Virus genome (UHGV): UHGV-0080127
Reading direction: 5' to 3' (one strand)
Source: a virus
DNA: 22,115 bases
Below are positions 9,616 to 21,045 of this stretch, in pieces. Position 1 is the first letter of the stretch. Every line of letters begins with the position of its first letter. The translations under genes were made by a program, and so were the position numbers. Under the pieces are notes generated by a model. The model was not told the origin of the DNA. It searched no databases and saw only the letters and a list, made by a program, of their open reading frames with translations.

Positions 9616-11382
9616 ATGAACACCACACTGACACCCGCAGATCTCGATCCCCGTCGGCAGGCCATGCTGCTGTACTTTCAGGGATACCGCGTAGCCCGCA
9701 TTGCTGAAATGCTGGGCGAGAAAGTTGCAACCGTTCACAGCTGGAAAAAACGCGACAAGTGGGGTGATTATGGGCCGCTGGATCAGATGCAGCTCACTAC
9801 CGCCGCACGCTACTGCCAGCTCATCATGAAGGAGCACAAAGAAGGGAAAGATTTCAAAGAAATTGACCTGCTGGCGCGCCAGTCGGAGCGCCACGCGCGG
9901 ATCGGCAAGTTTAACAATGGCGGTAACGAAGCCGACTTAAACCCTAACGTCGCCAACCGCAACAAAGGCCCGCGCCGTCAGCCGGAAAAGAATGTTTTCA
10001 CCGATGAACAGATTGAGAAGCTGGAAGAAATTTTCCATTCCTCCATGTTCAACTACCAGCGCCACTGGTGGGAAGCCGGAAAAACCAACCGCATCCGCAA
10101 CCTGCTGAAGTCACGCCAGATCGGCGCGACCTTTTACTTTGCCCGTGAAGCCCTGATTGACGCCCTGCTTACCGGACGTAACCAGATTTTCCTTTCCGCC
10201 AGCAAGGCACAGGCCCACGTCTTTAAGCAGTACATCATCGACTTCGCCAAAGAAGTGGAGGTGGAGTTGAAAGGCGATCCGATGGTGCTTCCTAACGGGG
10301 CCACGCTTTACTTCCTCGGCACCAATGCCCGCACTGCCCAGAGTTATCACGGCAACCTGTATCTGGATGAATATTTCTGGATACCGAAATTCCAGGAGCT
10401 GCGCAAAGTGGCTTCCGGTATGGCTATTCACAAAAAATGGCGACAAACCTATTTTTCCACGCCATCCAGCCTGACTCACAGTGCTTATCCGTTCTGGTCC
10501 GGTGCGCTGTTCAATCGTGGGCGCAACAAAGCCGATAAGGTGGACATCGACCTGTCCCACAGCAATCTGGCCCCCGGCCTGCTGTGCGCAGACGGGCAGT
10601 ACCGCCAGATAGTCACTGTGGAAGATGCGGTGCGCGGCGGCTGTAACCTGTTCGACCTCGACCAGTTGCGCATGGAGTACAGCCCGGACGAATACCAGAA
10701 CCTGCTGATGTGCGAGTTTGTGGACGATCTCGCGTCCGTGTTTCCGCTCAGCGAGCTGCAGGCGTGCATGGTGGACAGTTGGGAAGTCTGGACCGACTTT
10801 CATGCTCTGGCCCTGCGCCCGTTTGGCTGGCGCGAAGTGTGGATCGGTTATGACCCGGCAAAAGGTACGCAGAACGGCGACAGCGCCGGATGCGTGGTGG
10901 TGGCACCGCCAGCCGTGCCGGGCGGCAAGTTCCGCATTCTGGAGCGACACCAGTGGCGCGGGATGGACTTCCGCGCCCAGGCTGACGCCATTAAAAAACT
11001 GACGCAGCAGTACAACGTGACCTATATCGGCATCGACTCGACCGGCGTCGGTCACGGTGTCTACGAGAACGTGAAAGCGTTCTTTCCTGCCGTGCGGGAG
11101 TTTGTCTACAACCCCAACGTCAAAAACGCCCTGGTGCTCAAGGCCTACGACATCATCAGCCACCGCCGTCTGGAGTTTGACGCCGGACACACTGACATTG
11201 CGCAGTCATTCATGGCAATCCGTCGCGCAACCACCGCCAGCGGCAACCGCCCGACCTATGAAGCCAGCCGCAGCGAAGAAGCCAGCCACGCCGATCTGGC
11301 CTGGGCAACAATGCACGCACTGTTTAACGAACCGCTGCAGGGCGAATCCGCCAATACCAGCAATATTGTGGAGATTTTTTGA
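9616..11382 (+). CDS. P: Terminase large (ATPase) subunit gpP
   Basis: 588-aa ORF, ATG at 9616; P2 gpP-like; its stop overlaps the Q start (TGATG). Confidence 0.9.
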   Translation: MNTTLTPADLDPRRQAMLLYFQGYRVARIAEMLGEKVATVHSWKKRDKWGDYGPLDQMQLTTAARYCQLIMKEHKEGKDFKEIDLLARQSERHARIGKFNNGGNEADLNPNVANRNKGPRRQPEKNVFTDEQIEKLEEIFHSSMFNYQRHWWEAGKTNRIRNLLKSRQIGATFYFAREALIDALLTGRNQIFLSASKAQAHVFKQYIIDFAKEVEVELKGDPMVLPNGATLYFLGTNARTAQSYHGNLYLDEYFWIPKFQELRKVASGMAIHKKWRQTYFSTPSSLTHSAYPFWSGALFNRGRNKADKVDIDLSHSNLAPGLLCADGQYRQIVTVEDAVRGGCNLFDLDQLRMEYSPDEYQNLLMCEFVDDLASVFPLSELQACMVDSWEVWTDFHALALRPFGWREVWIGYDPAKGTQNGDSAGCVVVAPPAVPGGKFRILERHQWRGMDFRAQADAIKKLTQQYNVTYIGIDSTGVGHGVYENVKAFFPAVREFVYNPNVKNALVLKAYDIISHRRLEFDAGHTDIAQSFMAIRRATTASGNRPTYEASRSEEASHADLAWATMHALFNEPLQGESANTSNIVEIF

Positions 11383-12428
11383 TGAGTGAACCCGAAGCCT
11401 TAACCAGCAAAACGCCAACAGAAGCTACGGCACCGAAAAACACAGGCGTAAGTGCCGAGGCTTTCAGCTTTGGCGATCCGATCCCGGTACTGGACCGCCG
11501 CGAGCTGCTGGACTATGTGGAATGCGTACAGATGGACAGATGGTATGAACCGCCGGTCAGTTTTGATGGGCTGGCTCGCACCTATCGCGCCGCCGTACAT
11601 CACAGCTCACCGATTGCAGTGAAATGCAACATTCTAACCAGCACCTACATCCCTCACCCGCTGCTTAGCCAGCAGGCTTTTTCACGTTTTGTGCAGGACT
11701 ATCTGGTATTTGGTAACGCCTACCTGGAGAAACGCACGAACCGCTTCGGTGAAGTTATCGCCCTTGAGCCTGCTCTGGCAAAATACACCCGACGCGGATT
11801 AGATCTGGATACCTACTGGTTTGTGCAATACGGCATGACCACGCAACCGTATCAGTTCACGAAAGGCAGCATTTTTCACCTAATGGAACCGGATATTAAT
11901 CAGGAGATCTACGGCCTGCCCGGTTATCTTTCTGCCATTCCGTCTGCCCTGCTCAACGAGTCCGCCACGCTGTTCCGTCGAAAGTATTACATTAACGGCA
12001 GTCATGCAGGCTTCATTATGTACATGACCGATGCCGCGCAAAACCAGGAGGATGTGAACAACCTCCGCAATGCGATGAAAAGCGCCAAAGGACCAGGTAA
12101 CTTCCGCAATCTGTTTATGTACTCGCCTAACGGCAAAAAGGACGGGCTTCAGATCATCCCGTTGTCAGAAGTCGCGGCGAAGGATGAGTTTCTAAATATC
12201 AAGAACGTGAGCCGGGACGACATGATGGCAGCACACCGAGTGCCGCCGCAGATGATGGGGATTATGCCTAATAATGTAGGGGGGTTTGGGGATGTGGAGA
12301 AAGCCAGCCGGGTATTTGTTCGGAATGAACTGATGCCTTTACAAAAACGCATTGCCGAAATTAATGAATGGTTAGATGAAGAGGTAGTCAAATTTGAATA
12401 TTATGGCTTAGAAAATAATCAGTCATAA
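11382..12428 (+). CDS. Q: Portal protein gpQ
   Basis: ORF-track start 11379 is TTG; ATG at 11382 overlaps the P stop, with GGAG upstream; about 348 aa, P2 gpQ-like. Confidence 0.9.
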   Translation: MSEPEALTSKTPTEATAPKNTGVSAEAFSFGDPIPVLDRRELLDYVECVQMDRWYEPPVSFDGLARTYRAAVHHSSPIAVKCNILTSTYIPHPLLSQQAFSRFVQDYLVFGNAYLEKRTNRFGEVIALEPALAKYTRRGLDLDTYWFVQYGMTTQPYQFTKGSIFHLMEPDINQEIYGLPGYLSAIPSALLNESATLFRRKYYINGSHAGFIMYMTDAAQNQEDVNNLRNAMKSAKGPGNFRNLFMYSPNGKKDGLQIIPLSEVAAKDEFLNIKNVSRDDMMAAHRVPPQMMGIMPNNVGGFGDVEKASRVFVRNELMPLQKRIAEINEWLDEEVVKFEYYGLENNQS

Positions 12429-12435
12429 AAAAGAA

Positions 12436-12466
12436 GTGAACAAGTTGAATTTATCAGCTTGTTCAC
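12436..12466. terminator. Bidirectional hairpin terminator between convergent Q and the 12484-12952 cassette
   Basis: Perfect 9-bp inverted repeat GTGAACAAG...CTTGTTCAC with a 13-nt loop; on the minus strand it is followed by TTCTTTTTT. Confidence 0.55.
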
Positions 12467-12483
12467 TATTATCTGTATTATCT

Positions 12484-12753
12484 CTACTGCATCCGTCCGG
12501 GTAAATCGCTTTCATTGCGTAAACGCCAAGCTAACTGTTCACGATCCCAAACTATATCGTCTTTGCTAGCCTTTCTAAAATTTGCTAGCACAGTACTGCT
12601 TATAGCGTAATTACCATTCTCATTAGTTTTGATGAACTCGTCCCCAAAGTCATTGATTAGAAATTCAACAACCTCGGACTGATACAACACACCATTAGAA
12701 CGAGTGGTATTAACCATCCAGTCAACTATTTTTATCAGAGAATCATTCATCAT
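12484..12753 (-). CDS. Hypothetical protein (about 89 aa), second gene of the cos-proximal cassette
   Basis: Start placed at ATGATG (12753) overlapping the upstream gene's last codons and stop (GATGATGAATGA); AT-rich; no family recognised. Confidence 0.5.
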   Translation of the reverse strand: MMNDSLIKIVDWMVNTTRSNGVLYQSEVVEFLINDFGDEFIKTNENGNYAISSTVLANFRKASKDDIVWDREQLAWRLRNESDLPGRMQ

Positions 12754-12952
12754 CACTCTCAGCTTTTGGAACAAATAAAACTAGAGTATCTTCGTGAAAA
12801 ACTCCGCGCTGGTTCTTAGCACCAATAAACCACGTACAAACTGCCATTGTAGCCGATTGGTAGTGATCAATTACCATGATTGGACCATGTCCTGTTGCAT
12901 GTTTTACTTTCTGGCCCGGTGTATATTTTGCCACTCTCACGTCTCCTTTCAT
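12743..12952 (-). CDS. Small protein resembling the DUF2158/YodC family (69 aa)
   Basis: ATG at 12952; motifs PGQKVKH..GHGPIMVI and AVCTWF resemble my recollection of YodC-like small proteins; no clear Shine-Dalgarno, possibly a short leader. Confidence 0.5.
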   Translation of the reverse strand: MKGDVRVAKYTPGQKVKHATGHGPIMVIDHYQSATMAVCTWFIGAKNQRGVFHEDTLVLFVPKAESDDE

Positions 12953-13013
12953 GTGTAAGTTATCAATTTCAGAATATATCTACATTAATTGCAAGTAAAC
13001 ATGTTTGCGCGCG

Positions 13014-13032
13014 CTCGTATCCCCGCCACGCC
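13014..13032 (-). other. Candidate cos site (cohesive-end sequence)
   Basis: Minus strand reads GGCGTGGCGGGGATACGAG followed by CGCGCGC, closely resembling my recollection of the P2 19-nt cohesive end GGCGAGGCGGGGAAAGCAC followed by TGCGCGC; correct side and orientation relative to Q. Confidence 0.5.
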
Positions 13033-13075
13033 TGCCCGCTTTTTGTAGCGATTTTCATGCAGGTGCATGACATAA

Positions 13076-13101
13076 GCAAAAGCCCACCAGAACTGGCGGG
13101 C
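13076..13101 (-). terminator. Rho-independent terminator downstream of the 260-aa membrane protein gene
   Basis: Minus strand GCCCGCC-agttct-GGTGGGC (7-bp stem with one G-U pair) followed by TTTTGC, about 50 nt after the stop at 13150. Confidence 0.5.
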
Positions 13102-13149
13102 CTCAGCAAAAACGATCCTCAAACGATCATGCATATTCATGCGGCATAG

Positions 13150-13932
13150 TCATGCAGTGACTTTGGTCTGGTCAGGCGTAGAAAAATCTTCGAAAGATTT
13201 ATAAGTTTCAGTATCAAATATTGAAATACTCTCAACCTGATCCATTGGGATTACATGCCTAAAATGATTTAAGTTCAGTGGAGTTGAGTCTGCTGTAATA
13301 TTTTTACTAAGGTAAAGTTCATAGTAACGATGCTGCTCATGGTATCTGAGCGTATCTTTATCACGATAACCACTGATGTATGGTATGAGAGCCAGATGCT
13401 GAGTTTCCTGATGCTCCATCCGAGGAGCAGCTACGTAACCAATGTAAACTTTTCTGGATTTTAGCGTAACAAAGATGAGCTTACCTTCATCTATAGCCTG
13501 AACTAACAGTGACTCAATTCCATCTTGAGCTGCCATCTCGCGATATGCAGATTGACGAATCTCTTCGTTTTCTATTGCTCTTCGCGCATTGTTACCTTGG
13601 TCATAAGCAATAAACACCGCAAGCAGCATAGACAACACAAAGAACAATGGGTAAGACATTATCTTTACGTCTGTGAGCCATGAATAAAAGTCCACATGTA
13701 ACTTAGGCCAAAAATAACCAAAAAAATTGATAACTGAGCTTATAACTAGCAAGGTAACGAATGTAACAGCCATCAGAGTAAACCCCTGAATAGCAAACTT
13801 ACAACCATGCATAGCTACATAAAAATAGGAATTCCAACCATTACTTCTTGCTTGCCTGATGCGGGACTGGTAATGATTTTCGGTGTACCAGAACCCGCAA
13901 ACCAGGACGACCATGATAACTAAGGGTCCCAT
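13150..13932 (-). CDS. Hypothetical multi-pass membrane protein (260 aa) with a roughly 150-aa soluble C-terminal domain
   Basis: ATG at 13932 lies 3 nt after the upstream gene's TGA with AAGGA inside it (translational coupling); three hydrophobic stretches in the first ~110 aa; AT-rich codon usage unlike flanking phage genes. Confidence 0.6.
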   Translation of the reverse strand: MGPLVIMVVLVCGFWYTENHYQSRIRQARSNGWNSYFYVAMHGCKFAIQGFTLMAVTFVTLLVISSVINFFGYFWPKLHVDFYSWLTDVKIMSYPLFFVLSMLLAVFIAYDQGNNARRAIENEEIRQSAYREMAAQDGIESLLVQAIDEGKLIFVTLKSRKVYIGYVAAPRMEHQETQHLALIPYISGYRDKDTLRYHEQHRYYELYLSKNITADSTPLNLNHFRHVIPMDQVESISIFDTETYKSFEDFSTPDQTKVTA

Positions 13933-13935
13933 TCC

Positions 13936-14136
13936 TCATCCTTGTCGTTTTGCAGCCAATTCTTCCATTCTGGCACGCATTGATTCACGTACCTGCTTAT
14001 TGTTCATGTTTAAGGTCGCCGCACCATTAGCATCTGTGATAATTTTACTATTATCAGACTGTTGCACATCCTGACGGATGATATCCTGCATAATCTTACC
14101 TGGTGCAGAGAGAACTTTGCGCAGAAGTTCAGACAT
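13936..14136 (-). CDS. Hypothetical small soluble protein (66 aa), first gene of the two-gene operon
   Basis: ATG at 14136 with a strong AAGGAGG RBS (5-nt spacer); the ORF-track TTG start at 14211 is rejected because a TATAAT box lies inside that extension. Confidence 0.5.
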   Translation of the reverse strand: MSELLRKVLSAPGKIMQDIIRQDVQQSDNSKIITDANGAATLNMNNKQVRESMRARMEELAAKRQG

Positions 14137-14196
14137 ATTTTCCTCCTTATGCCTCAAACGCCACGGATTGTGGTGCATGGAAGCTGTCATCTTATG

Positions 14197-14202
14197 ATTA
14201 TA
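14197..14202 (-). promoter_or_regulatory. Candidate -10 box (TATAAT) of the promoter for the 13150-14136 operon
   Basis: Perfect TATAAT on the minus strand about 60 nt upstream of the 14136 ATG; the -35 region is weak and AT-rich. Confidence 0.35.
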
Positions 14203-14355
14203 GGACAACAAAAATACGAAACTATTCGAAGAGTGCTACGTATTAACCTATTTACATATCACCCTGCAACCAATTTATCCATAACTAACGCCTCGCACGG
14301 CTCGTTGCTCAACCTTGCGAACGGTAAAAACCAGTTTTATCGTCCGCAACGTTCC

Positions 14356-14589
14356 CTAATGTAACCAGCTGTCGTCTTCCCACACCTTCTGCATAATTTT
14401 CATCACTTGCTTCCTTTCTTCGTCCAGTTGCAGTCCGGTCAGTTCCACACCGTTAGAGCTACCTTTGCGGATACGAATTACCGTTTTGGGATACAGGGGG
14501 CGCAGATTGCGGTAAAGCTCGGATTCAAGGGCGTCCAGTGTAGACTGGCTAATCTTCTGCTCTTTATCGATCATTATTTCAATGCGCAT
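14356..14589 (-). CDS. dinI: DinI-family protein (about 77 aa)
   Basis: From the in-frame ATG at 14589 (AGGTGA RBS) the protein reads MRIEIMIDKEQKISQSTLDALESELYRNL...QKVWEDDSWLH, matching the DinI pattern (MRIEVTI...ETWESADDW). Confidence 0.75.
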   Translation of the reverse strand: MRIEIMIDKEQKISQSTLDALESELYRNLRPLYPKTVIRIRKGSSNGVELTGLQLDEERKQVMKIMQKVWEDDSWLH

Positions 14590-14599
14590 AAAAGTCACC

Positions 14600-14788
14600 T
14601 CAGCTGATGACATCCATTGAGCGGTTGTATTCGTGGGTTCTGATTTTTGCCATGAGTTCATCTGTTAGTTCAGAAACCCACTGCAAAGCCAGCCCCTTCT
14701 CTTCATCACTACACTCACTAGCCGCTACAAGCTTAAGAAAAAAATCAATGCGCTGGAGCTTCAAAGACTCCAAAAAATAGTCCTGCAT
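14600..14788 (-). CDS. Hypothetical 62-aa protein, first gene of the SOS operon (possible Tum-like antirepressor segment)
   Basis: ATG at 14788 with AGGAGGAAAG RBS, about 43 bp downstream of a LexA box; function inferred only from synteny with the 186 tum operon. Confidence 0.45.
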   Translation of the reverse strand: MQDYFLESLKLQRIDFFLKLVAASECSDEEKGLALQWVSELTDELMAKIRTHEYNRSMDVIS

Positions 14789-14828
14789 CTTTCCTCCTAT
14801 GACACCAAAGCAATACTGTATACATAAC

Positions 14829-14848
14829 CACTGTTTATATTTACAGTA
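14829..14848. promoter_or_regulatory. LexA (SOS) box CACTGTTTATATTTACAGTA overlapping a promoter for the minus-strand operon
   Basis: CTGT-N8-ACAG with an AT-rich spacer, matching the E. coli LexA consensus TACTGTATATATATACAGTA; minus-strand TTACAT and TATACT-like hexamers overlap it. Confidence 0.7.
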
Positions 14849-14940
14849 TATAATAATCTTACTGATGTAAAACGTTTTTTTACGTTCATCAGCCTGATAT
14901 GCCTGGTATTATTAAGAGCACGAATTGTTAACCCGCGTAA

Positions 14941-17355
14941 TTAATACAGGTTCCGCCACTTATCATCTTCCTTCAGACGCTGGTTCCGATAGAAGATACG
15001 CAGGCCTGCTCCTGACGGAATACTGCCACCGCGAAGGAGTAAATCGACCTCTTTCTCGCTGCCATCAAATCCTCTGGACTTCAGTTCATAGACGAGCTGC
15101 TGTCGTTGATGGTCTGTAATTCGCTGTTTGTAGTCTCTACGCCGTTTCGGTTTCACCAGGCGTAACCTTACAGCCAGTTCCCGGCGCTCTTTTTTGTTCA
15201 TACTGTGCAGAAAATCGTGCAACTCCTTGTCATCCATGCGGGTAATATCCGTTCTGGTGTCCCCATCAGCTGATTTATCTTTCTCCTGTTGGTTCAAATT
15301 TTCAGCAAGGGGACAGTTATTGCCACGAGTCCAAGGGGCGCAAGCGCCCTGGTCGGCTGCCGCCTCCTGAACGTCAACGGCCTTACGAACCATTTTCCAC
15401 TTCACCGCATGAGTGCAGATCTTGCCCTCTGCAATGGGTGACCAGATGCCATAAATACGAATACCGTGATCGCCATAAGCGGTTGGCTCTTCGTTGATTT
15501 CATAAGCGGTTCTGATGAGGTGATATTTACGGGGAACCAGTACGCCACCCTGCTTCATGATATAGGTGGCAAAACAACCAGCATCAGCAGCAGCCAGAAT
15601 GGCATCAAGGCGCGGGTTATCCAGTACCGGCGCACCTGCTTTTTTGTCACCCTGTTGCCTTGCCGCCTGACCAGCCAGCAATCGCAGTTCACGGTAAGCC
15701 TGACGCCCCGGAATGCCAAAGAAGCGGAATTGCTGAACACGATGCAGAGACGCCCAGGCATTAACGTATTCAGCGTTATCACGCAGGGATTTACCCGTTT
15801 CCTTGCTGATCTCCCCAGCCAGACCACGCCCGTCAATGTTCTTACTGATGTATTTCGCGATATAGCTTGTTGGCGTACCTTTGCGCGGGTTTATCAGCTC
15901 AGACTTAAAGCGTGGTCCCGTGTTATTGCCCAGCTCCTCGCGGTCTTCACGGATGGCAAACTTACGCAGTAATGCAGTGATGGCGCGGCGGTCTTTTTTA
16001 CGCATGAAACACATGAGATGCCAGTGCACAGTACCGTCATGATGCGGCTCAGCTACCCGCACGCCATACCAGCGCAACTCGGCTTTATGCATAGCCTTAC
16101 GAAATGCAGCAAACATGCCGACCAGATAATCGCTACTTTGTCTTACCGTCGCGTTTGTCCAGGTCGGGTTTGGTCTGCCGTTATTGAGCGTGGAATGGAA
16201 ACGCGACGGACAGGTGATAGTGTAGAAAACGGCACAGTCACTGCGCATTTCCGCGATAAGCTCCAGACCTTTAACACAGGCCATCATCTCATTGCGGCGA
16301 TGCGCCGGGTTGCTGCTGCTGGCGTTTACCACATCTTCCATATCCAGCGTGTCGCCGTCTTCGTTCACCAGTTCATGAGAACGAAAAAACTCCAGCGACT
16401 TACGGCGCTGCTCACGTTTATGCATCACGGCTTCATAGCTGACATAGGGGGATGCTTTTTTGCTGACCAGGCAGACAGCACGCAACTGCTCTTCCCGCCA
16501 TTCGCAACGCATCTTCCATAATTTCCGATACCACCAGTCGGCACACAACATACGCGCCAGCGAACCCGGGATGAGTTCATAGGGCACTGGTTTGCGGCGG
16601 TTTCTTTTCCGACGAAGTTTCTCAAACGCAGGCGGGATAACATCCAGACGCAGGGTTTCCGCTGCCACCTTTTCCCATGTCTTGCGGATTTCTTCTGGCT
16701 TAACGTCATCGGTGGCATACAAATCACCACAAGCGTCCTCAAGACACATGCTCATATGCGCTGCTACCAGGGTGGACAGGCGTTTCACCTGATCCTGGCT
16801 CATTTCAGGCAGGATCAGCAGACCCTCCAGCCCTTGATGGCTTGCCATAAAACGGAAAGAAACAGATAGCTGACTGTCACGTACACAATCCAGTCGCTCC
16901 AGACATGGCTTAATCGTCTCACGCAAATAGCGGGAATAAGCCTTTGGCCTGCCCAGGCTGCTGAAGTATTCAATACGTTGCATCAGCGGCTTGCTGATAT
17001 GGGAAGGCTGGGCGTTTACGTCCGCCAGAATGACCATGTCCGGATTAAAACGCTGCTGCTCATGCGCCAGCTTTGCCCGGCTAATGAGCTTATCCTGCTC
17101 CATTTCGCGCTGGACAGGATCACGGGATTCATTAAAGAAATAACGCTCCCAGACCTGCTCACTCAGTGCCTCGCGGCGCAGTTGTTCCTGCTCGTTATCG
17201 GCAGCGTACAGAGTGATCAGGTTTGAAAGTGCAGACTCCGGCGCAACTTCCGCCGGGTCCAGATAAGGGTTAATGGCCTTTTTCGAGCCGTTCCATGAAA
17301 ATGCTGCGGCGGCCTCGTTAAAGCCGCTGCAATTGTTCATATCGTCATGACTCAT
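14941..17355 (-). CDS. A: Replication initiation endonuclease gpA (rolling-circle type)
   Basis: About 804 aa from the ATG at 17355 (ORF-track start 17361 is GTG), which overlaps the dam stop (ATGA); contains an HUH-like motif ([13 protein letters not shown]); P2 gpA-like. Confidence 0.9.
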
Positions 17356-18209
17356 ACACACACTCCGTACACGGCAGAACTATCCACGCCACGCGAAGGA
17401 TCAAATCCCAACCAGCAGCTCGGCCCGGAAACAGCAATGATTTCTGTTGCAGATTTACCCTCGCCAGCTGACACGCCGATGCTGCGTTTTGCCTTGATAT
17501 AGTGGTGAGTAAAATTGCGATACAGCGAACGAATCAGGGATGTGTCATTGTTAGAAACAATGACCGGATGTCCTTCTGATGACCGATGTTCAAGAATGGA
17601 TGCCAGGTGATACTGGTCATCTTCAGTGAAACCATCAGTGTGATAGCCGGAAAACGTACCGTCATACGGCGGATCGCAATACACCACATCCCCCACCTGC
17701 AGCATCGCCAGCGTTTCATCAAAGCTCGCGCAGATAAACGTTGCCCGCTGGGCTTTCTCTGCAAATGCGCGAATTTCTTTTTCAGGGAAATACGGATTTT
17801 TATAATTACCGTAGGGAATGTTGAAATACCCGCTCTTGTTATAGCGACATAAACCACGGTAACCGTGACGATTGAGATACAGGAAATATATCGCCTTCAT
17901 GAAATCAGTAATTTCAGTTGAGTAATTAAACTCCTGTCTTATGTTGTAATAAGCCAGCTCACTGTTTGCTTCCTCAAATAAAACTTTGGCACGAGATATA
18001 AACGCTTCGCAATCAGCGGCAATCTTTTTATAGAGGTTGATTAAATCAGGATTAATATCCGCAACCAGATAGCTGGGGTAATCCGTCGCCATCATCACAG
18101 CACAAGAACCCGCGAAAGGTTCAACCAGTCGCGGGCCAGCAGGAAGGTATTTTTTCAGTTCGGACATAATGGCGGTTTTATTACCCGCCCATTTCAGGAT
18201 GGTGCTCAT
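17352..18209 (-). CDS. dam: DNA adenine methyltransferase (Dam family)
   Basis: From the ATG at 18209 the protein reads [11 protein letters not shown]..., with AdoMet-binding region and DPPY catalytic motif; translationally coupled to A. Confidence 0.85.
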
Positions 18210-18433
18210 ACAGCACCTCCGTTGTAATGTTTGCCTTTCAACTCTGCGATTTCCTGGCAGGTAATGCAAAGCTGCACTCCAGGAATGGCACGGCGGCGTG
18301 CTGGCGGAATTGGCGCTTCACACTCAACGCAAAGCACGCGGGACACGCCCGGCGTTTTGGCACGGGCAGCACGGATATGGCGTTGGCGTTCTTCTTCAAC
18401 GCGCTGCTGTACGAGATCCATTGCATCAGCCAT
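18206..18433 (-). CDS. TraR/DksA-family C4 zinc-finger protein
   Basis: 75 aa with CVEC...CITC four-cysteine motif; ATG at 18433 overlaps the upstream stop. Confidence 0.7.
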   Translation of the reverse strand: MADAMDLVQQRVEEERQRHIRAARAKTPGVSRVLCVECEAPIPPARRRAIPGVQLCITCQEIAELKGKHYNGGAV

Positions 18434-18666
18434 CAGTGGATCTCCTGCGCTTCGTTCTGGATTGCTTCAGCAGTCACACGCAGCAGTTCTGCCGCTTCGA
18501 CGTGGTTTAGCTGGCGGGAGGTGATATGACACGCCAGGCTATCGAGGCGAGCAGCCATTGCTTCAGCCCTTGCCCGGCGTTCTTCCAGACGAGCCTCTGT
18601 CAGTAAAAGATTAAGACCTGCATCATCCGGTCCGGTTTTGGTCGTGAGGGTTTCAATATTACGCAT
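18433..18666 (-). CDS. Hypothetical early protein (about 77 aa)
   Basis: ATG at 18666 with AGGAGA RBS (ORF-track start 18672 is TTG); no family recognised. Confidence 0.45.
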   Translation of the reverse strand: MRNIETLTTKTGPDDAGLNLLLTEARLEERRARAEAMAARLDSLACHITSRQLNHVEAAELLRVTAEAIQNEAQEIH

Positions 18667-18733
18667 AAGCAATTCTCCTGAATTTAGATAAAGGGATGCC
18701 CGGCGGGTTTACGCCATTAATTTCATTAGTTGG

Positions 18734-19075
18734 TTAATTCGGCATGGTTAGCCGTCTGGGAAATAAGCTCACCACTGCACGAAAATGATTCATTGCTTTA
18801 ATCAACTCCCGCTTTTCGTCAGTGGTCAGCTCATTAATGCTGATGCTATGACGTTCAGCTGGAATTTTTGCCATAAAGAATATGGCAGCCAGTGCCCGTT
18901 TATTTTGTTCATTATTGATATCCCGTGGATCACGCATATCTTTAATAAACCGCTCAAGCTCTGACTCAATATTCAAACCAAAAACTTTCGCCCTTAACTC
19001 CGCAATATGATTAAGTCCATTCAGGCGTTCACCGGGTCTTAATGGAACAGTCGCCGCAGCGCCTTCAATAGCCAT
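18734..19075 (-). CDS. Hypothetical early protein (113 aa)
   Basis: ATG at 19075 with a GGGGGA-type RBS; in the early rightward-operon position; no family recognised. Confidence 0.45.
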   Translation of the reverse strand: MAIEGAAATVPLRPGERLNGLNHIAELRAKVFGLNIESELERFIKDMRDPRDINNEQNKRALAAIFFMAKIPAERHSISINELTTDEKRELIKAMNHFRAVVSLFPRRLTMPN

Positions 19076-19788: not shown

Positions 19789-20010
19789 CTAATTAAGGTT
19801 TAGATTGCATTCTGAAAGCGCATCAACGGTCATTGCTGCTATGTTGATCATCACTTTTTCGCGTTTTTTATCTTTGCGCAGACGGTGACGGATAAGGCGT
19901 CCATCAGCCAACATGTCATTGATGGTATCGATGGATAGCCCTGTCAGCTCGCTATAGCGTTCAATAGTCACATGAGGGGTGGTAAGAGTGATTGAAATGT
20001 TAGGTCTCAT
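19789..20010 (-). CDS. apl: Apl/Cox-type excisionase and transcriptional regulator
   Basis: 73-aa ORF, first gene of the leftward lytic operon, with a helix-turn-helix-like segment ([21 protein letters not shown]). Confidence 0.65.
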
Positions 20011-20135
20011 GATGCAACATTCCTCGTTTAATGATGATTAATCAGGACGAATACGGATCGTTTGTATTTTGTGAACACCATAAACATACGATCGCACAGT
20101 GAAATCGTCAAGATAAAAGTTCACTTGGAGTGACC
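20011..20135. promoter_or_regulatory. Lysis-lysogeny switch region (divergent promoters and candidate CI operators)
   Basis: 125-bp gap between divergent apl and cI; contains the inverted repeat GTGAAC (20071-20076) / GTTCAC (20119-20124) and two GATC sites. Confidence 0.45.
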
Positions 20136-20705
20136 ATGAATTTGGAGAAAGGCGGACGAGGCGCTATAGAGCGCATGGTAGAAGCTTATGGATTCAAGAC
20201 TCGACAGGCGTTGTGCGATCATTTAGGAATCTCTAAAAGTACACTCGCCACACGCTACATGCGTGACTCATTCCCAGCAGAATGGGTAATCCAGTGCGCC
20301 CTTGAAACAGGCAGCTCGCTTAATTGGCTCACAACCGGGCATGGTTCAAAGCAAACTTCAGGTAATACAAATACTATGGAAGTTGCTAAATATGTATTAT
20401 CTGATGGGGCCTTGTGTGAAGACGGTTTTTATATTTTCGATAGAGAATTTCTACCGTCGGCATTCAAGAATCTTTTTGTAATCACAGATAATAATTCTGA
20501 ATTTATTTGTGATAAGGAATTTGATGATATACGTGATGGTAAATGGGTAATAAGTATTGATGGCGAAATAACGATCCGTGACATTACTCGTTTACCCGGT
20601 GGAAGAATCTTCGTCGAGGGTGGAAACAGAGCCTTCGAGTGCAAGATAGAAGATGTTGAAATAATTGGGAAAATTATAAGTTTAACAATTAGGTACGTTA
20701 GGTAA
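20136..20705 (+). CDS. cI: CI immunity repressor (186 type)
   Basis: ATG at 20136 with GGAG RBS (ORF-track start 20130 is GTG); conserved block CALETGSSLNWLTTGHG resembles 186 CI (CALETGANLQWLLTGEG), as does the C-terminal ...ISIRDITRLPGG. Confidence 0.8.
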   Translation: MNLEKGGRGAIERMVEAYGFKTRQALCDHLGISKSTLATRYMRDSFPAEWVIQCALETGSSLNWLTTGHGSKQTSGNTNTMEVAKYVLSDGALCEDGFYIFDREFLPSAFKNLFVITDNNSEFICDKEFDDIRDGKWVISIDGEITIRDITRLPGGRIFVEGGNRAFECKIEDVEIIGKIISLTIRYVR

Positions 20706-20720
20706 TACCGGGAGGAAACT

Positions 20721-20912
20721 ATGCTTGGTAAGGTATTTTTTGTGGTTTTATCATGCTCTTTGTTATTAAACCCACTAACTACCTATGCTAAAAATTATCC
20801 TTGTTCTGGGAAAAAGGGAGGTGTCTCTCACTGTACCTCCGATGGAAAGTTCGTTTGCAATGATGGAACTATTAGTAAATCAAAAAAAATCTGTACTAAA
20901 AACTCGCGATAA
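20721..20912 (+). CDS. Small secreted cysteine-rich lysine-rich peptide (63-aa precursor)
   Basis: ATG at 20721 with strong GGGAGGAAACT RBS; predicted signal peptide [23 protein letters not shown], then a roughly 40-aa basic region with four Cys; co-directional with cI and int. Confidence 0.55.
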
Positions 20913-21045
20913 ATTTTGCTTTTATATCTGCGCCTAATATAACAATGAGCCGCAGGCTAACCGCAAAAGTCATATACTCACATAGCAAAAAATAGCTAAC
21001 TTCATTATGGCTTCAGTGAGATGTATGGTCGCAGGATTTCATACA

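What the first reader, a model, noticed from the sequence alone, without database searches (positions are those of the whole stretch)
12430..14350. Compositional island flanking cos: AT-rich cargo without a recognisable Old or Tin
The roughly 1.9-kb stretch around cos is visibly AT-rich compared with the GC-rich structural and replication genes on either side, suggesting horizontally acquired cargo. I see no large OLD-family ATPase-nuclease ORF, so the classical P2 old gene appears to be replaced by different small modules.
Basis: seen in the sequence. Interest (0 to 1): 0.55.

Follow-up and report, generated by a model that had tools for sequence, protein, structure and literature searches.

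The report
Swappable cargo slots beside phage cos
The AT-rich stretch is the known variable "cargo hotspot" beside the packaging site of a P2-family prophage; here it holds two independently swapped small gene cassettes instead of old/tin, and the larger one encodes an uncharacterised but widespread two-gene membrane module.

Summary
Window 12430-14350 has 41% GC, against 56% in the structural genes and 48% on the replication side, and it is the lowest-GC stretch of that size in the window. There is no Old or Tin homologue.

It is the cos-proximal gpA-gpQ hotspot of P2-like phages (Rousset 2022). It is two cassettes, not one island, separated by a conserved GC-rich cos core (13005-13156):
- **Slot L (12429-13004):** a DUF6953 gene plus a 63-aa gene.
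- **Slot R (13157-14284):** a clean 1128-bp insertion relative to an empty site in phage vB_EcoM-813R9. It holds a 66-aa gene followed 3 nt later by a 260-aa gene.

The two cassettes occur independently in relatives. The AT-rich DNA from 14285 to 14940 is conserved backbone: a LexA-controlled TumA/DinI operon.

The 260-aa protein has two or three N-terminal membrane helices and a cytoplasmic Sm-like domain. It is system #43 in Rousset's table, untested. Its family has about 2,700 clusters and no Pfam model. A small upstream partner gene nearly always accompanies it. The pair recurs in P2-like, lambdoid and Mu-like prophages, on plasmids and in chromosomes.

Function is inferred only: a membrane-acting phage-exclusion module is the most likely reading (about 0.45). 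The hotspot is ordinary; the cargo is moderately interesting.

The parts
11379..12428 (+). gpQ portal gene; left conserved flank of the hotspot
   Evidence: Annotated as a phage portal protein in the 99.3%-identical COL60J locus. About 80% DNA identity to the CFT073, 813R9 and Fels-2 Q genes up to 12364-12394.
12435..12467 (.). 14-bp-stem hairpin between the convergent Q gene and the slot-L genes; a bidirectional terminator candidate
   Evidence: Terminator-like site in the scan; the sequence is shown.
12429..13004 (-). Slot L cassette (576 bp, GC 0.38)
   Evidence: Homology to CFT073, 813R9 and Fels-2 stops at the end of Q and resumes at 12999-13005. The cassette is present at >=99% identity in only 8 of 5426 E. 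coli genomes.
12484..12753 (-). DUF6953 family gene (89 aa from the RefSeq start; the ORF extends to 12774)
   Evidence: Pfam PF22266, 84.5 bits against a cut-off of 27. PHROG 10782, unknown function. WP_096997786 in COL60J. It stands alone next to the portal gene in Klebsiella P2-like prophages.
12743..12934 (-). 63-aa gene overlapping the DUF6953 start by 11 nt; weakly DUF2158-like
   Evidence: Pfam DUF2158, 19.5 bits, below the 22.3 cut-off. PHROG 3261, E=1e-7. WP_024169233. SD AAAGGAG at 12943-12949; promoter-like hexamers at 12994-12999 and 12973-12978 (read from the sequence).
13005..13156 (.). Conserved cos core (GC 0.54)
   Evidence: 87-89% identical to Fels-2 and vB_EcoM-813R9, and at least 98% identical to CFT073 and strain 300709. 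GC.
13014..13032 (-). 19-nt cohesive-end sequence GGCGTGGCGGGGATACGAG
   Evidence: Aligns with P2 cosR GGCGAGGCGGGGAAAGCAC (14 of 19) in the same GC-rich context.
13074..13102 (-). Intrinsic terminator (GGCCCGCCAG/CUGGUGGGC followed by UUUUGCUU) inside the cos core; same position as 186 t95b
   Evidence: RNA fold of 13040-13160 on the minus strand: -40.8 kcal/mol, z = -2.85. Coordinates. The 186 t95b annotation is.
13157..14284 (-). Slot R cassette (1128 bp, GC about 0.41)
   Evidence: A clean insertion relative to the empty site in vB_EcoM-813R9, where L015 positions 2652 and 2661 adjoin. Present at >=99% identity in 16 of 5426 E. coli genomes, including CFT073.
13150..13932 (-). 260-aa membrane protein with a cytoplasmic Sm-like domain
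13936..14136 (-). 66-aa partner gene; its stop lies 3 nt before the 260-aa start
   Evidence: SD AAGGAGG at 14142-14148. WP_001292590. A homologous small ORF lies directly upstream of the membrane gene in about 78 of 86 loci. The AF2 model is helix-helix-hairpin-helix, pLDDT 75.
14197..14202 (-). Perfect -10 hexamer TATAAT inside the cassette; candidate own promoter (weak -35)
   Evidence: Read from the sequence. The consensus scan did not call it because no -35 reaches 4 of 6.
14313..14351 (-). Conserved stem-loop just after the DinI stop, without a U-tract; same position as the partial terminator t95a of 186
   Evidence: RNA fold. It lies in the backbone conserved with the empty-site phage. 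The 186 annotation is.
14356..14589 (-). DinI-like gene (TumB-like); conserved backbone, not cargo
   Evidence: Pfam DinI, 80.3 bits. 41% identical to the C-terminal half of 186 Tum. The Fels-2 record calls its homologue TumB-like.
14600..14788 (-). 62-aa first gene of the SOS operon (WP_001154434); conserved backbone
   Evidence: PHROG 698. Annotated in COL60J, CFT073, Fels-2 and 813R9. No similarity to the N-terminal part of 186 Tum.
14829..14848 (-). LexA box TACTGTAAATATAAACAGTG in the promoter region of the SOS operon
   Evidence: CTGT-N8-ACAG match, the only one in 12300-15100. Compared with the 186 p95 LexA site TACTGTATGTTTATACAGTA.
14941..17361 (-). gpA replication endonuclease; right conserved flank
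   Evidence: 36% identity to 186 A and 32% to P2 A. Annotated as a replication endonuclease.

Best explanation
The AT-rich stretch is the cos-proximal accessory hotspot of a P2-family prophage of the SOS-inducible PsP3/Fels-2/186-like type. It is made of two independently exchangeable cassettes on either side of a conserved GC-rich cos core.

**Shown**
- Slot L (12429-13004) carries a 63-aa gene and a DUF6953 gene. They are transcribed from the cos side towards Q.
- Slot R (13157-14284) is a 1128-bp insertion carrying a closely spaced pair (stop and start 3 nt apart): a 66-aa soluble protein, then a 260-aa inner-membrane protein whose C-terminal domain has an Sm-like fold.
- Slot R lies between a stem-loop after the LexA-controlled DinI-like gene and the terminator inside the cos core. 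This is the same slot and orientation as orf97 in phage 186.
- Old and Tin are absent.

**Inferred**
- The cassettes are swapped by recombination in the conserved flanks (Q end, cos core, segment downstream of DinI).
- Slot R is expressed from its own promoter (-10 TATAAT at 14197-14202) in the lysogen. After SOS induction it is expressed further, by read-through from the LexA-controlled promoter.
- The 260-aa protein assembles through its Sm-like domain into a ring at the membrane. The small partner acts as its regulator or sensor.
- The pair blocks competing phages by disturbing the membrane (abortive infection or superinfection exclusion).

Probabilities: about 0.9 for the hotspot and two-cassette anatomy; about 0.45 for the phage-exclusion function of slot R; about 0.3 for any defence or toxin-antitoxin role of slot L.
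For: **Composition:** GC 0.41 against 0.56 and 0.48; GC3 0.30-0.42 against 0.56-0.71.

**Boundaries and independence of the cassettes:** blastn against COL60J, CFT073, strain 300709, Fels-2 and vB_EcoM-813R9, the last with an empty right slot.

**Rarity of the cassettes against the flanks:** 16 and 8 genomes against 1260, out of 5426.

**Published hotspot:** the locus between gpA and gpQ is the described P2 hotspot, where 3 of 8 newly cloned systems protected against phages. The 260-aa protein is listed there as system #43 with 93 occurrences, and I found no record of it among the tested systems (PMC9122126).

**Two-gene unit:** a homologous 47-85-aa ORF ends -4 to +15 nt from the membrane gene in about 78 of 86 loci, and also in distant members.

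**Recurrence in mobile elements**
- Divergent versions (31-47% identity and lower) sit in the same gpA-Q slot of a Salmonella diarizonae prophage, Klebsiella phage ST15-OXA48phi14.1, Salmonella SEN4/SEN5 and one further prophage.
- The pair sits between the antiterminator and the holin in lambdoid prophages, and between Mor and the endolysin in a Mu-like prophage.
- It is found on a plasmid and next to a type III-B CRISPR locus.
- TIR and SEFIR genes are neighbours in two phages.

**Regulatory layout:** LexA box, DinI-like gene, stem-loop and terminator, compared with the 186 annotation of p95, tum, t95a, orf97 and t95b.
Against: - No experimental data exist for either cassette.
- No PADLOC, Pfam or NCBIfam model matches the 260-aa protein or its partner.
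- Among one-genome-per-species loci, most homologues are not in prophages or defence islands. They sit between ordinary metabolic and transport genes, and in Erwinia and Photorhabdus the positions are syntenic across species. That pattern is unusual for defence systems.
- Five Erwinia species keep an intact membrane gene with no partner within 400 nt upstream.
- In lambdoid and Mu-like prophages the pair lies directly upstream of, and co-directional with, the lysis genes, which also fits a role in the phage's own lytic cycle.
- The ring assembly, the promoter and the SOS read-through are all inferred.
- Phobius in the published table counts 2, not 3, membrane helices.
Confidence: 0.55

Rival explanations
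1. The small-plus-membrane pair serves the phage's own lytic cycle, not defence. It would be a lysis-timing or membrane-preparation factor, or a device that stops re-adsorption or superinfection during induction. It would be expressed with the late or SOS genes.
For: In two lambdoid prophages and one Mu-like prophage, the pair lies immediately upstream of the holin or endolysin genes and points the same way. In P2-like phages it always points the same way as gpA and the LexA-controlled operon, and it sits inside that transcription unit, between the stem-loop and the final terminator. The membrane topology is compatible with holin-like proteins: the C-terminal domain faces the cytoplasm.
Against: Those prophages already carry complete holin and endolysin sets. 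The cassette is dispensable: there is an empty site in vB_EcoM-813R9 and it is absent from about 99% of related E. coli prophages. Most homologues are in chromosomes with no phage genes nearby. No holin family matches consistently; one weak hit in 39 members.
Confidence: 0.2
2. The pair is a toxin-antitoxin-type addiction module. The membrane protein is the toxin and the small upstream protein is the antitoxin. It stabilises the prophage or plasmid and has no specific anti-phage role.
For: The layout is typical: a small gene first, with a 3-nt gap to the larger gene. The pair occurs on a plasmid next to par and rep genes, in prophages and in small chromosomal islets.
Confidence: 0.1
3. The pair has a cellular membrane or stress-physiology function, for example an ion or solute channel with a cytoplasmic regulatory ring. 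Temperate phages carry it as a host-fitness gene.
For: Most species-level homologues lie among transporters, oxidoreductases and regulators, at positions conserved within Erwinia (MFS transporter, pair, CrcB) and Photorhabdus (cueO, pair, hpt). Several genomes carry both a chromosomal and a phage-type copy. Membrane helices followed by an Sm-like beta domain is the general plan of MscS-type channels (my own knowledge; fold data).
Confidence: 0.15
4. The low GC is only local compositional noise or intergenic AT-richness around cos, with no acquired genes.
For: Promoter and intergenic stretches here are AT-rich. For example, 14789-14940 has GC 0.34 yet is conserved backbone.
Against: The low-GC DNA is almost entirely coding, with four genes that have family support and RefSeq annotation. 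Its limits coincide with homology breakpoints and with an empty site in a relative.
Confidence: 0.02

Closest known systems
P2 old/tin locus: the cos-proximal gpA-gpQ hotspot of P2-like phages (Rousset et al. 2022, PMC9122126)
   Same: Same position (between gpA and the portal gene gpQ, next to cos), the same high turnover of small AT-rich cassettes, and the same proteins listed in that paper's Tables S5A and S5B.
   Different: No Old (ATPase-TOPRIM) and no Tin. Here the cargo is resolved into two slots on either side of cos. The paper lists the 260-aa protein as a single-gene '2 TM' system of unknown function; I found no record of it among the tested systems.
Phage 186 orf97 in the p95 SOS operon (p95, tum, t95a, orf97, t95b, cos)
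   Same: Same slot, same orientation and same regulatory frame: a LexA box, a DinI-type gene, a stem-loop, the cargo gene, then a terminator before cos. The 186 record notes that orf97 expressed from a plasmid blocks 186 infection.
   Different: No sequence similarity between Orf97 and the 260-aa protein (best BLASTP E=0.96). Here the tum function is split into a 62-aa gene and a DinI-like gene. The 53-bp segment that lies upstream of the cassette here lies downstream of orf97 in 186.
Lambda RexA/RexB and other two-gene prophage exclusion systems with a membrane effector
   Same: Prophage-borne, two genes, one soluble and one an inner-membrane protein, and no enzymatic domain. This comparison rests on my own knowledge of Rex.
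   Different: No sequence or model match (PADLOC). The sizes are reversed: here the membrane protein is the large one and carries a cytoplasmic Sm-like domain. No phenotype is known.
Sm/LSm/Hfq ring proteins
   Different: It is fused to N-terminal membrane helices. No Pfam LSM hit. Ring formation and RNA or nucleotide binding were not tested.
MscS-type mechanosensitive channels
   Same: The general plan is N-terminal membrane helices followed by a cytoplasmic Sm-like beta domain that forms a ring (my own knowledge).

Membership tests
OLD family (P2 Old: ABC-type ATPase plus TOPRIM nuclease, about 586 aa) | A large ORF with ATPase and TOPRIM domains, similar to P2 Old | tested here: not met
   The longest ORF between Q and A is 260 aa. 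tblastn of P2 Old against the whole window: best E=7.3. No ATPase, TOPRIM or PADLOC hit.
P2 Tin | Sequence similarity to P2 Tin (253 aa) | tested here: not met
   BLASTP of the 260-aa protein against Tin: best E=7.2. tblastn of Tin against the window: best E=1.8.
P2-like cos-proximal hotspot cargo (Rousset 2022) | Located between gpA and gpQ, next to cos | tested here: met
   Gene order is Q, slot L, cos, slot R, DinI operon, gpA.
P2-like cos-proximal hotspot cargo (Rousset 2022) | Variable among otherwise related prophages | tested here: met
   Different cassettes or an empty slot in CFT073, strain 300709, Fels-2 and 813R9. Cassettes in 16 and 8 genomes against 1260 for the flanks.
P2-like cos-proximal hotspot cargo (Rousset 2022) | Listed in the published catalogue of the locus | tested here: met
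   WP_000529102, WP_001292590, WP_096997786 and WP_024169233 are in Table S5A. The 260-aa protein is system #43 in Table S5B.
Known anti-phage defence systems (PADLOC-DB 2.0) | A match to any defence-system protein model | tested here: not met
   No hit at E<=0.1 for any of the eight ORFs. Newer catalogues and machine-learning predictors could not be run.
Sm/LSm fold | An N-terminal helix followed by a strongly bent five-stranded beta sheet | tested here: met
Sm/LSm fold | Sequence-level membership (Pfam LSM) and a hexameric or heptameric ring | tested here: inconclusive
   No Pfam LSM hit. Oligomeric state could not be tested with the tools available.
MscS channel family | A match to the MS_channel profile or to MscS structures | tested here: not met
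Type II toxin-antitoxin module | A small antitoxin gene directly upstream of the toxin, with the partner obligatory | tested here: inconclusive
   The gene layout fits. However, 5 Erwinia species keep the membrane gene without a partner, and the partner has no antitoxin-like fold. Toxicity was not testable.
DinI family (186 Tum C-terminal domain / PsP3 TumB) | A Pfam DinI domain under a LexA-controlled promoter | tested here: met
   PF06183, 80.3 bits against a cut-off of 24.2. 41% identity to 186 Tum residues 71-145. LexA box at 14829-14848.
DUF6953 (PF22266) | A match above the Pfam gathering score | tested here: met
   84.5 bits against a cut-off of 27, covering 70 of 74 profile positions.
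DUF2158 (PF09926) | A match above the Pfam gathering score | tested here: not met
   19.5 bits against a cut-off of 22.3. This is resemblance only.

The most novel reading that the evidence does not exclude
The 66-aa plus 260-aa pair would be the founding example of a large, unnamed family of two-gene membrane systems (about 2,700 sequence clusters). A membrane-tethered Sm-like ring, controlled by a small soluble partner, would act as a new kind of abortive-infection or superinfection-exclusion effector. Alternatively, it would be an SOS- or late-expressed gate on the membrane. P2-like, lambdoid and Mu-like phages and plasmids would have captured it repeatedly from a chromosomal ancestor in Erwiniaceae and relatives.
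Probability: 0.35. Interest if true: 0.6.

Novelty: new member of a known kind. Interest (0 to 1): 0.4.

Why it matters
The hotspot itself is textbook for P2-family phages and needs no new explanation. Three things go beyond the published catalogue.

1. The locus resolves into two separately exchangeable slots around a conserved cos core. The right slot is embedded in the LexA-controlled transcription unit.
2. Catalogue entry #43, listed as a single '2 TM' protein, is really a conserved two-gene unit with a membrane-anchored Sm-like domain.
3. This unit belongs to a very large family that has no Pfam model and no PADLOC defence model, and it recurs in the cargo slots of three different temperate-phage types.

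If the pair proves to be an exclusion system, it adds a new effector type. It would also give a handle on hundreds of unannotated hotspot genes. If it proves to act in the phage's own induction or lysis, it would be a new accessory function linked to SOS induction.

Tried and rejected
**Old, Tin, P2 Orf91 and 186 Orf97:** BLASTP and tblastn found nothing.

**Family searches on the cargo ORFs**
- PADLOC, NCBIfam and Pfam gave only DUF6953, sub-threshold DUF2158 and DinI.
- Spurious plus-strand ORFs (12880-13149, 14062-14364) had no family support and were dropped.

**Structure and sequence searches**
- A sequence search of solved structures with the DUF6953 protein and with the 260-aa family profile gave nothing meaningful.
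- Foldseek against viral predicted structures gave no match at E<=0.001 and TM-scores of about 0.2.
- The AlphaFold-database library was unavailable.

**DUF6338:** a possible link was seen in one distant member (25.1 bits, below the cut-off) and at E=0.05 in one of 39 family members. I treated it as inconclusive.

**Literature**
- Full-text searches for DUF6953, DUF2158 and DUF6338 found nothing relevant; a search on Sm-like, transmembrane, anti-phage and prophage (3 of 4 terms required) listed no paper that contains 'Sm-like'.
- The supplements of the 2026 P2/P4 hotspot paper are not held, so its predictor scores for these proteins could not be checked.

**Phage marker search:** my first search of the 80 species loci showed that only 3 are P2-like. 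That forced me to abandon the idea that the family is phage-only.

**Promoters:** the consensus scan found no significant excess of promoter-like sites (4 found against 7.5 expected). The promoters named in this report are read from the sequence and remain unproven.
Full report
**1. What the window is**

The window is a P2-family prophage of Escherichia coli. The gene order is tail and head genes, O, then P and Q on the plus strand. After Q come the region in question, gpA, a Dam methylase, the immunity region, and the integrase at the right end. The stretch 12300-15000 is 99.3% identical to E. coli COL60J. Its outer parts (Q, cos, DinI, gpA) match 1260 of 5426 complete E. coli genomes and many Klebsiella and Salmonella P2-like phages, including Fels-2.

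**2. Check of the observation**

- GC of 12430-14350 is 0.410, against 0.559 to the left and 0.482 to the right.
- It is the lowest-GC stretch of that length in the window: the minimum starts at 12341, and about 1% of windows are as low.
- GC3 of the four genes inside is 0.30-0.42, against 0.56-0.71 for the core genes.
- There is no large ORF. P2 Old, P2 Tin, P2 Orf91 and 186 Orf97 have no counterpart anywhere in the window.

Both halves of the observation hold.

**3. Anatomy from comparison with relatives**

blastn against five relatives shows that the AT-rich stretch is not one island.

- **cos core.** A 152-bp segment, 13005-13156, has 54% GC and is conserved in all five relatives. It contains the 19-nt cohesive-end sequence GGCGTGGCGGGGATACGAG at 13014-13032 (P2: GGCGAGGCGGGGAAAGCAC). 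On the minus strand it contains a strong intrinsic terminator at 13074-13102.
- **Slot L.** To the left of the core, 12429-13004 differs between relatives.
- **Slot R.** To the right of the core, 13157-14284 differs between relatives. In phage vB_EcoM-813R9 this slot is empty: the cos core and the segment that starts at window 14285 are 8 bp apart. Slot R is therefore a clean 1128-bp insertion.
- **Independent swapping.** CFT073 has the same slot R but a Hypoth_Ymh (TIGR02391) gene in slot L. Strain 300709 has the same slot L but a different gene in slot R. Fels-2 differs in both.
- **Frequency.** Slot R occurs in 16 complete E. coli genomes and slot L in 8. Only COL60J has both.

**4. What is not cargo**

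The stretch 14285-14940 is also rather AT-rich (0.34-0.47) but is conserved backbone. It holds these features:
- a LexA box (TACTGTAAATATAAACAGTG, 14829-14848);
- a 62-aa gene;
- a DinI-like gene, 41% identical to the C-terminal half of 186 Tum and called TumB-like in the Fels-2 record;
- a stem-loop without a U-tract at 14313-14351.

This layout copies the 186 SOS operon: p95 with its LexA site, tum, partial terminator t95a, orf97, terminator t95b, cos. Slot R occupies the orf97 position, inside that transcription unit and in the same orientation. The cassette also has a perfect -10 hexamer (14197-14202) and a strong ribosome-binding site before the 66-aa gene. Expression from its own promoter, plus SOS read-through, is inferred and not shown.

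**5. Relation to what is published**

Rousset et al. (PMC9122126) described exactly this locus, between gpA and gpQ next to cos, as a diversity hotspot. They found 1,650 gene arrangements in E. coli, including old/tin in P2 itself. Three of eight newly cloned systems were protective. All four cargo proteins here appear in their Table S5A as 'hypothetical'. The 260-aa protein is system #43 of Table S5B: 93 occurrences, no Pfam, '2 TM'. I found no record of it among the tested systems. A 2026 survey reports that 19% of P2 elements carry only genes of unknown function at the main locus (PMC13586616).

**6. The slot R cargo**

*Family and fold.* The 260-aa protein has no Pfam, NCBIfam or PADLOC match but a large family:
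- 158 close homologues, all annotated as hypothetical where a source names them;
- 201 species genomes encoding a relative;
- 2,675 clusters at E<=0.001 in an exhaustive profile search, nearly all 240-300 aa long.

*The partner gene.* A 66-aa gene ends 3 nt before the 260-aa start. A homologous small ORF sits in the same place in about 78 of 86 loci examined, and also in very distant members. This is a two-gene unit, not the single gene listed in the catalogue. The partner model is helix-helix-hairpin-helix and resembles nothing solved.

**7. Where the pair lives**

- **P2 hotspot.** Divergent versions (47%, 34%, 31% identity and lower) sit in the same gpA-Q slot of a Salmonella diarizonae prophage, Klebsiella phage ST15-OXA48phi14.1, Salmonella SEN4/SEN5 and one more prophage.
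- **Other prophages.** It lies between the antiterminator and the holin in Enterobacter and Gilliamella lambdoid prophages. It lies between Mor and the endolysin in an Aeromonas Mu-like prophage, and after the tape-measure gene in Ignatzschineria.
- **Plasmid and CRISPR neighbourhood.** One copy is on a plasmid, and one is beside a type III-B CRISPR locus.
- **Chromosomes.** Of 80 one-per-species loci, only three are P2-like. Most lie among ordinary genes (aldo-keto reductases, sugar transporters, LacI regulators). The positions are syntenic across 12 Erwinia/Pantoea loci and 3 Photorhabdus species.
- **Partner loss.** Five Erwinia species have the membrane gene without the partner.

**8. How it most likely works**

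*Shown:* the position, the boundaries, the two-gene unit, the predicted fold, the distribution and the regulatory frame.

*Inferred:* the protein forms a ring through its Sm-like domain at the inner face of the membrane. The conserved N-terminal region and the partner control it. In the lysogen it interferes with infecting phages through the membrane, as other prophage membrane effectors do.

I put about 0.45 on that function. In its favour are the repeated capture of divergent versions by the P2 hotspot and by cargo slots in other prophages, and the defence-type neighbours. Against it are the chromosomal, syntenic majority of the family and the absence of any model match.

The rivals are:
- a role in the phage's own induction or lysis (0.2), supported by the position beside lysis genes and inside the SOS unit;
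- a cellular membrane function carried as a fitness gene (0.15);
- a toxin-antitoxin module (0.1), weakened by the partner-less Erwinia copies.

**9. The slot L cargo**

The 63-aa gene and the DUF6953 gene overlap by 11 nt. They are transcribed from the cos side towards Q and end at a hairpin shared with Q. DUF6953 is a family of unknown function. In Klebsiella P2-like prophages it sits alone next to the portal gene. The 63-aa protein is only weakly DUF2158-like, below the Pfam threshold. No function can be assigned. Only its position suggests an accessory or defence role.

**10. Verdict**

The added value is threefold: the two-slot anatomy, the embedding of slot R in the LexA-controlled unit, and the recognition that catalogue entry #43 is a conserved two-gene system with a membrane-anchored Sm-like domain and a very large, unnamed family. 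Interest is 0.4. I classify it as a new member of a known kind.

Noticed in passing
window 14356-14848: The SOS operon is split compared with phage 186. A 62-aa gene with no similarity to the N-terminal part of Tum is followed by a separate DinI-like gene, under a near-consensus LexA box. In 186 both parts are one protein, Tum.
   Followed up: partly
window 14285-14337 vs L004 5361-5413: A 53-bp conserved segment lies upstream of the slot R cassette here but downstream of orf97 in phage 186. The right slot therefore has at least two different insertion points.
   Followed up: no
window 17352-18269: A DNA adenine methylase gene overlaps the start of gpA. The Fels-2 record likens its homologue to the retron Ec67 Dam. 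GC is 0.46, lower than the neighbouring gpA.
   Followed up: no
window 17600-18200, 18600-19000, 19800-21000: There are further low-GC stretches (0.36-0.44) in the early and immunity region. They include a 191-aa ORF at 20130-20705 (GC 0.41), the size of a 186-type CI repressor.
   Followed up: no
L005 3826-4617; L100 3559-4992: Defence-type genes sit next to the small-plus-membrane pair in two phages. One is a TIR_2 domain gene in the Aeromonas Mu-like prophage. The other is a SEFIR domain gene sharing the gpA-Q hotspot in Klebsiella phage ST15-OXA48phi14.1.
   Followed up: no
L040, L047, L070, L075, L077 (Erwinia/Kalamiella species): The membrane gene is intact, but no partner ORF is detectable within 400 nt upstream. 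Sister species with the same MFS-CrcB synteny keep the partner.
   Followed up: partly
NZ_CP030919.1 (E. coli KL53), hit H64: An IS1B element is inserted within the slot L cassette next to the DUF6953 gene.
   Followed up: no
NZ_CP019257.1 (E. coli 13TMH22, 36,172-bp 'plasmid' record), hit H62: The record begins with 69 bases identical to the start of the slot R cassette. Its size suggests a P2-like phage genome assembled as a separate circle.
   Followed up: no
L036 6965-7450 (Photorhabdus): A 161-aa protein with a ClpX-type zinc finger follows the pair in the cueO-hpt islet. zf-C4_ClpX proteins also appear in P2 hotspot arrangements in Rousset's Table S5A.
   Followed up: no
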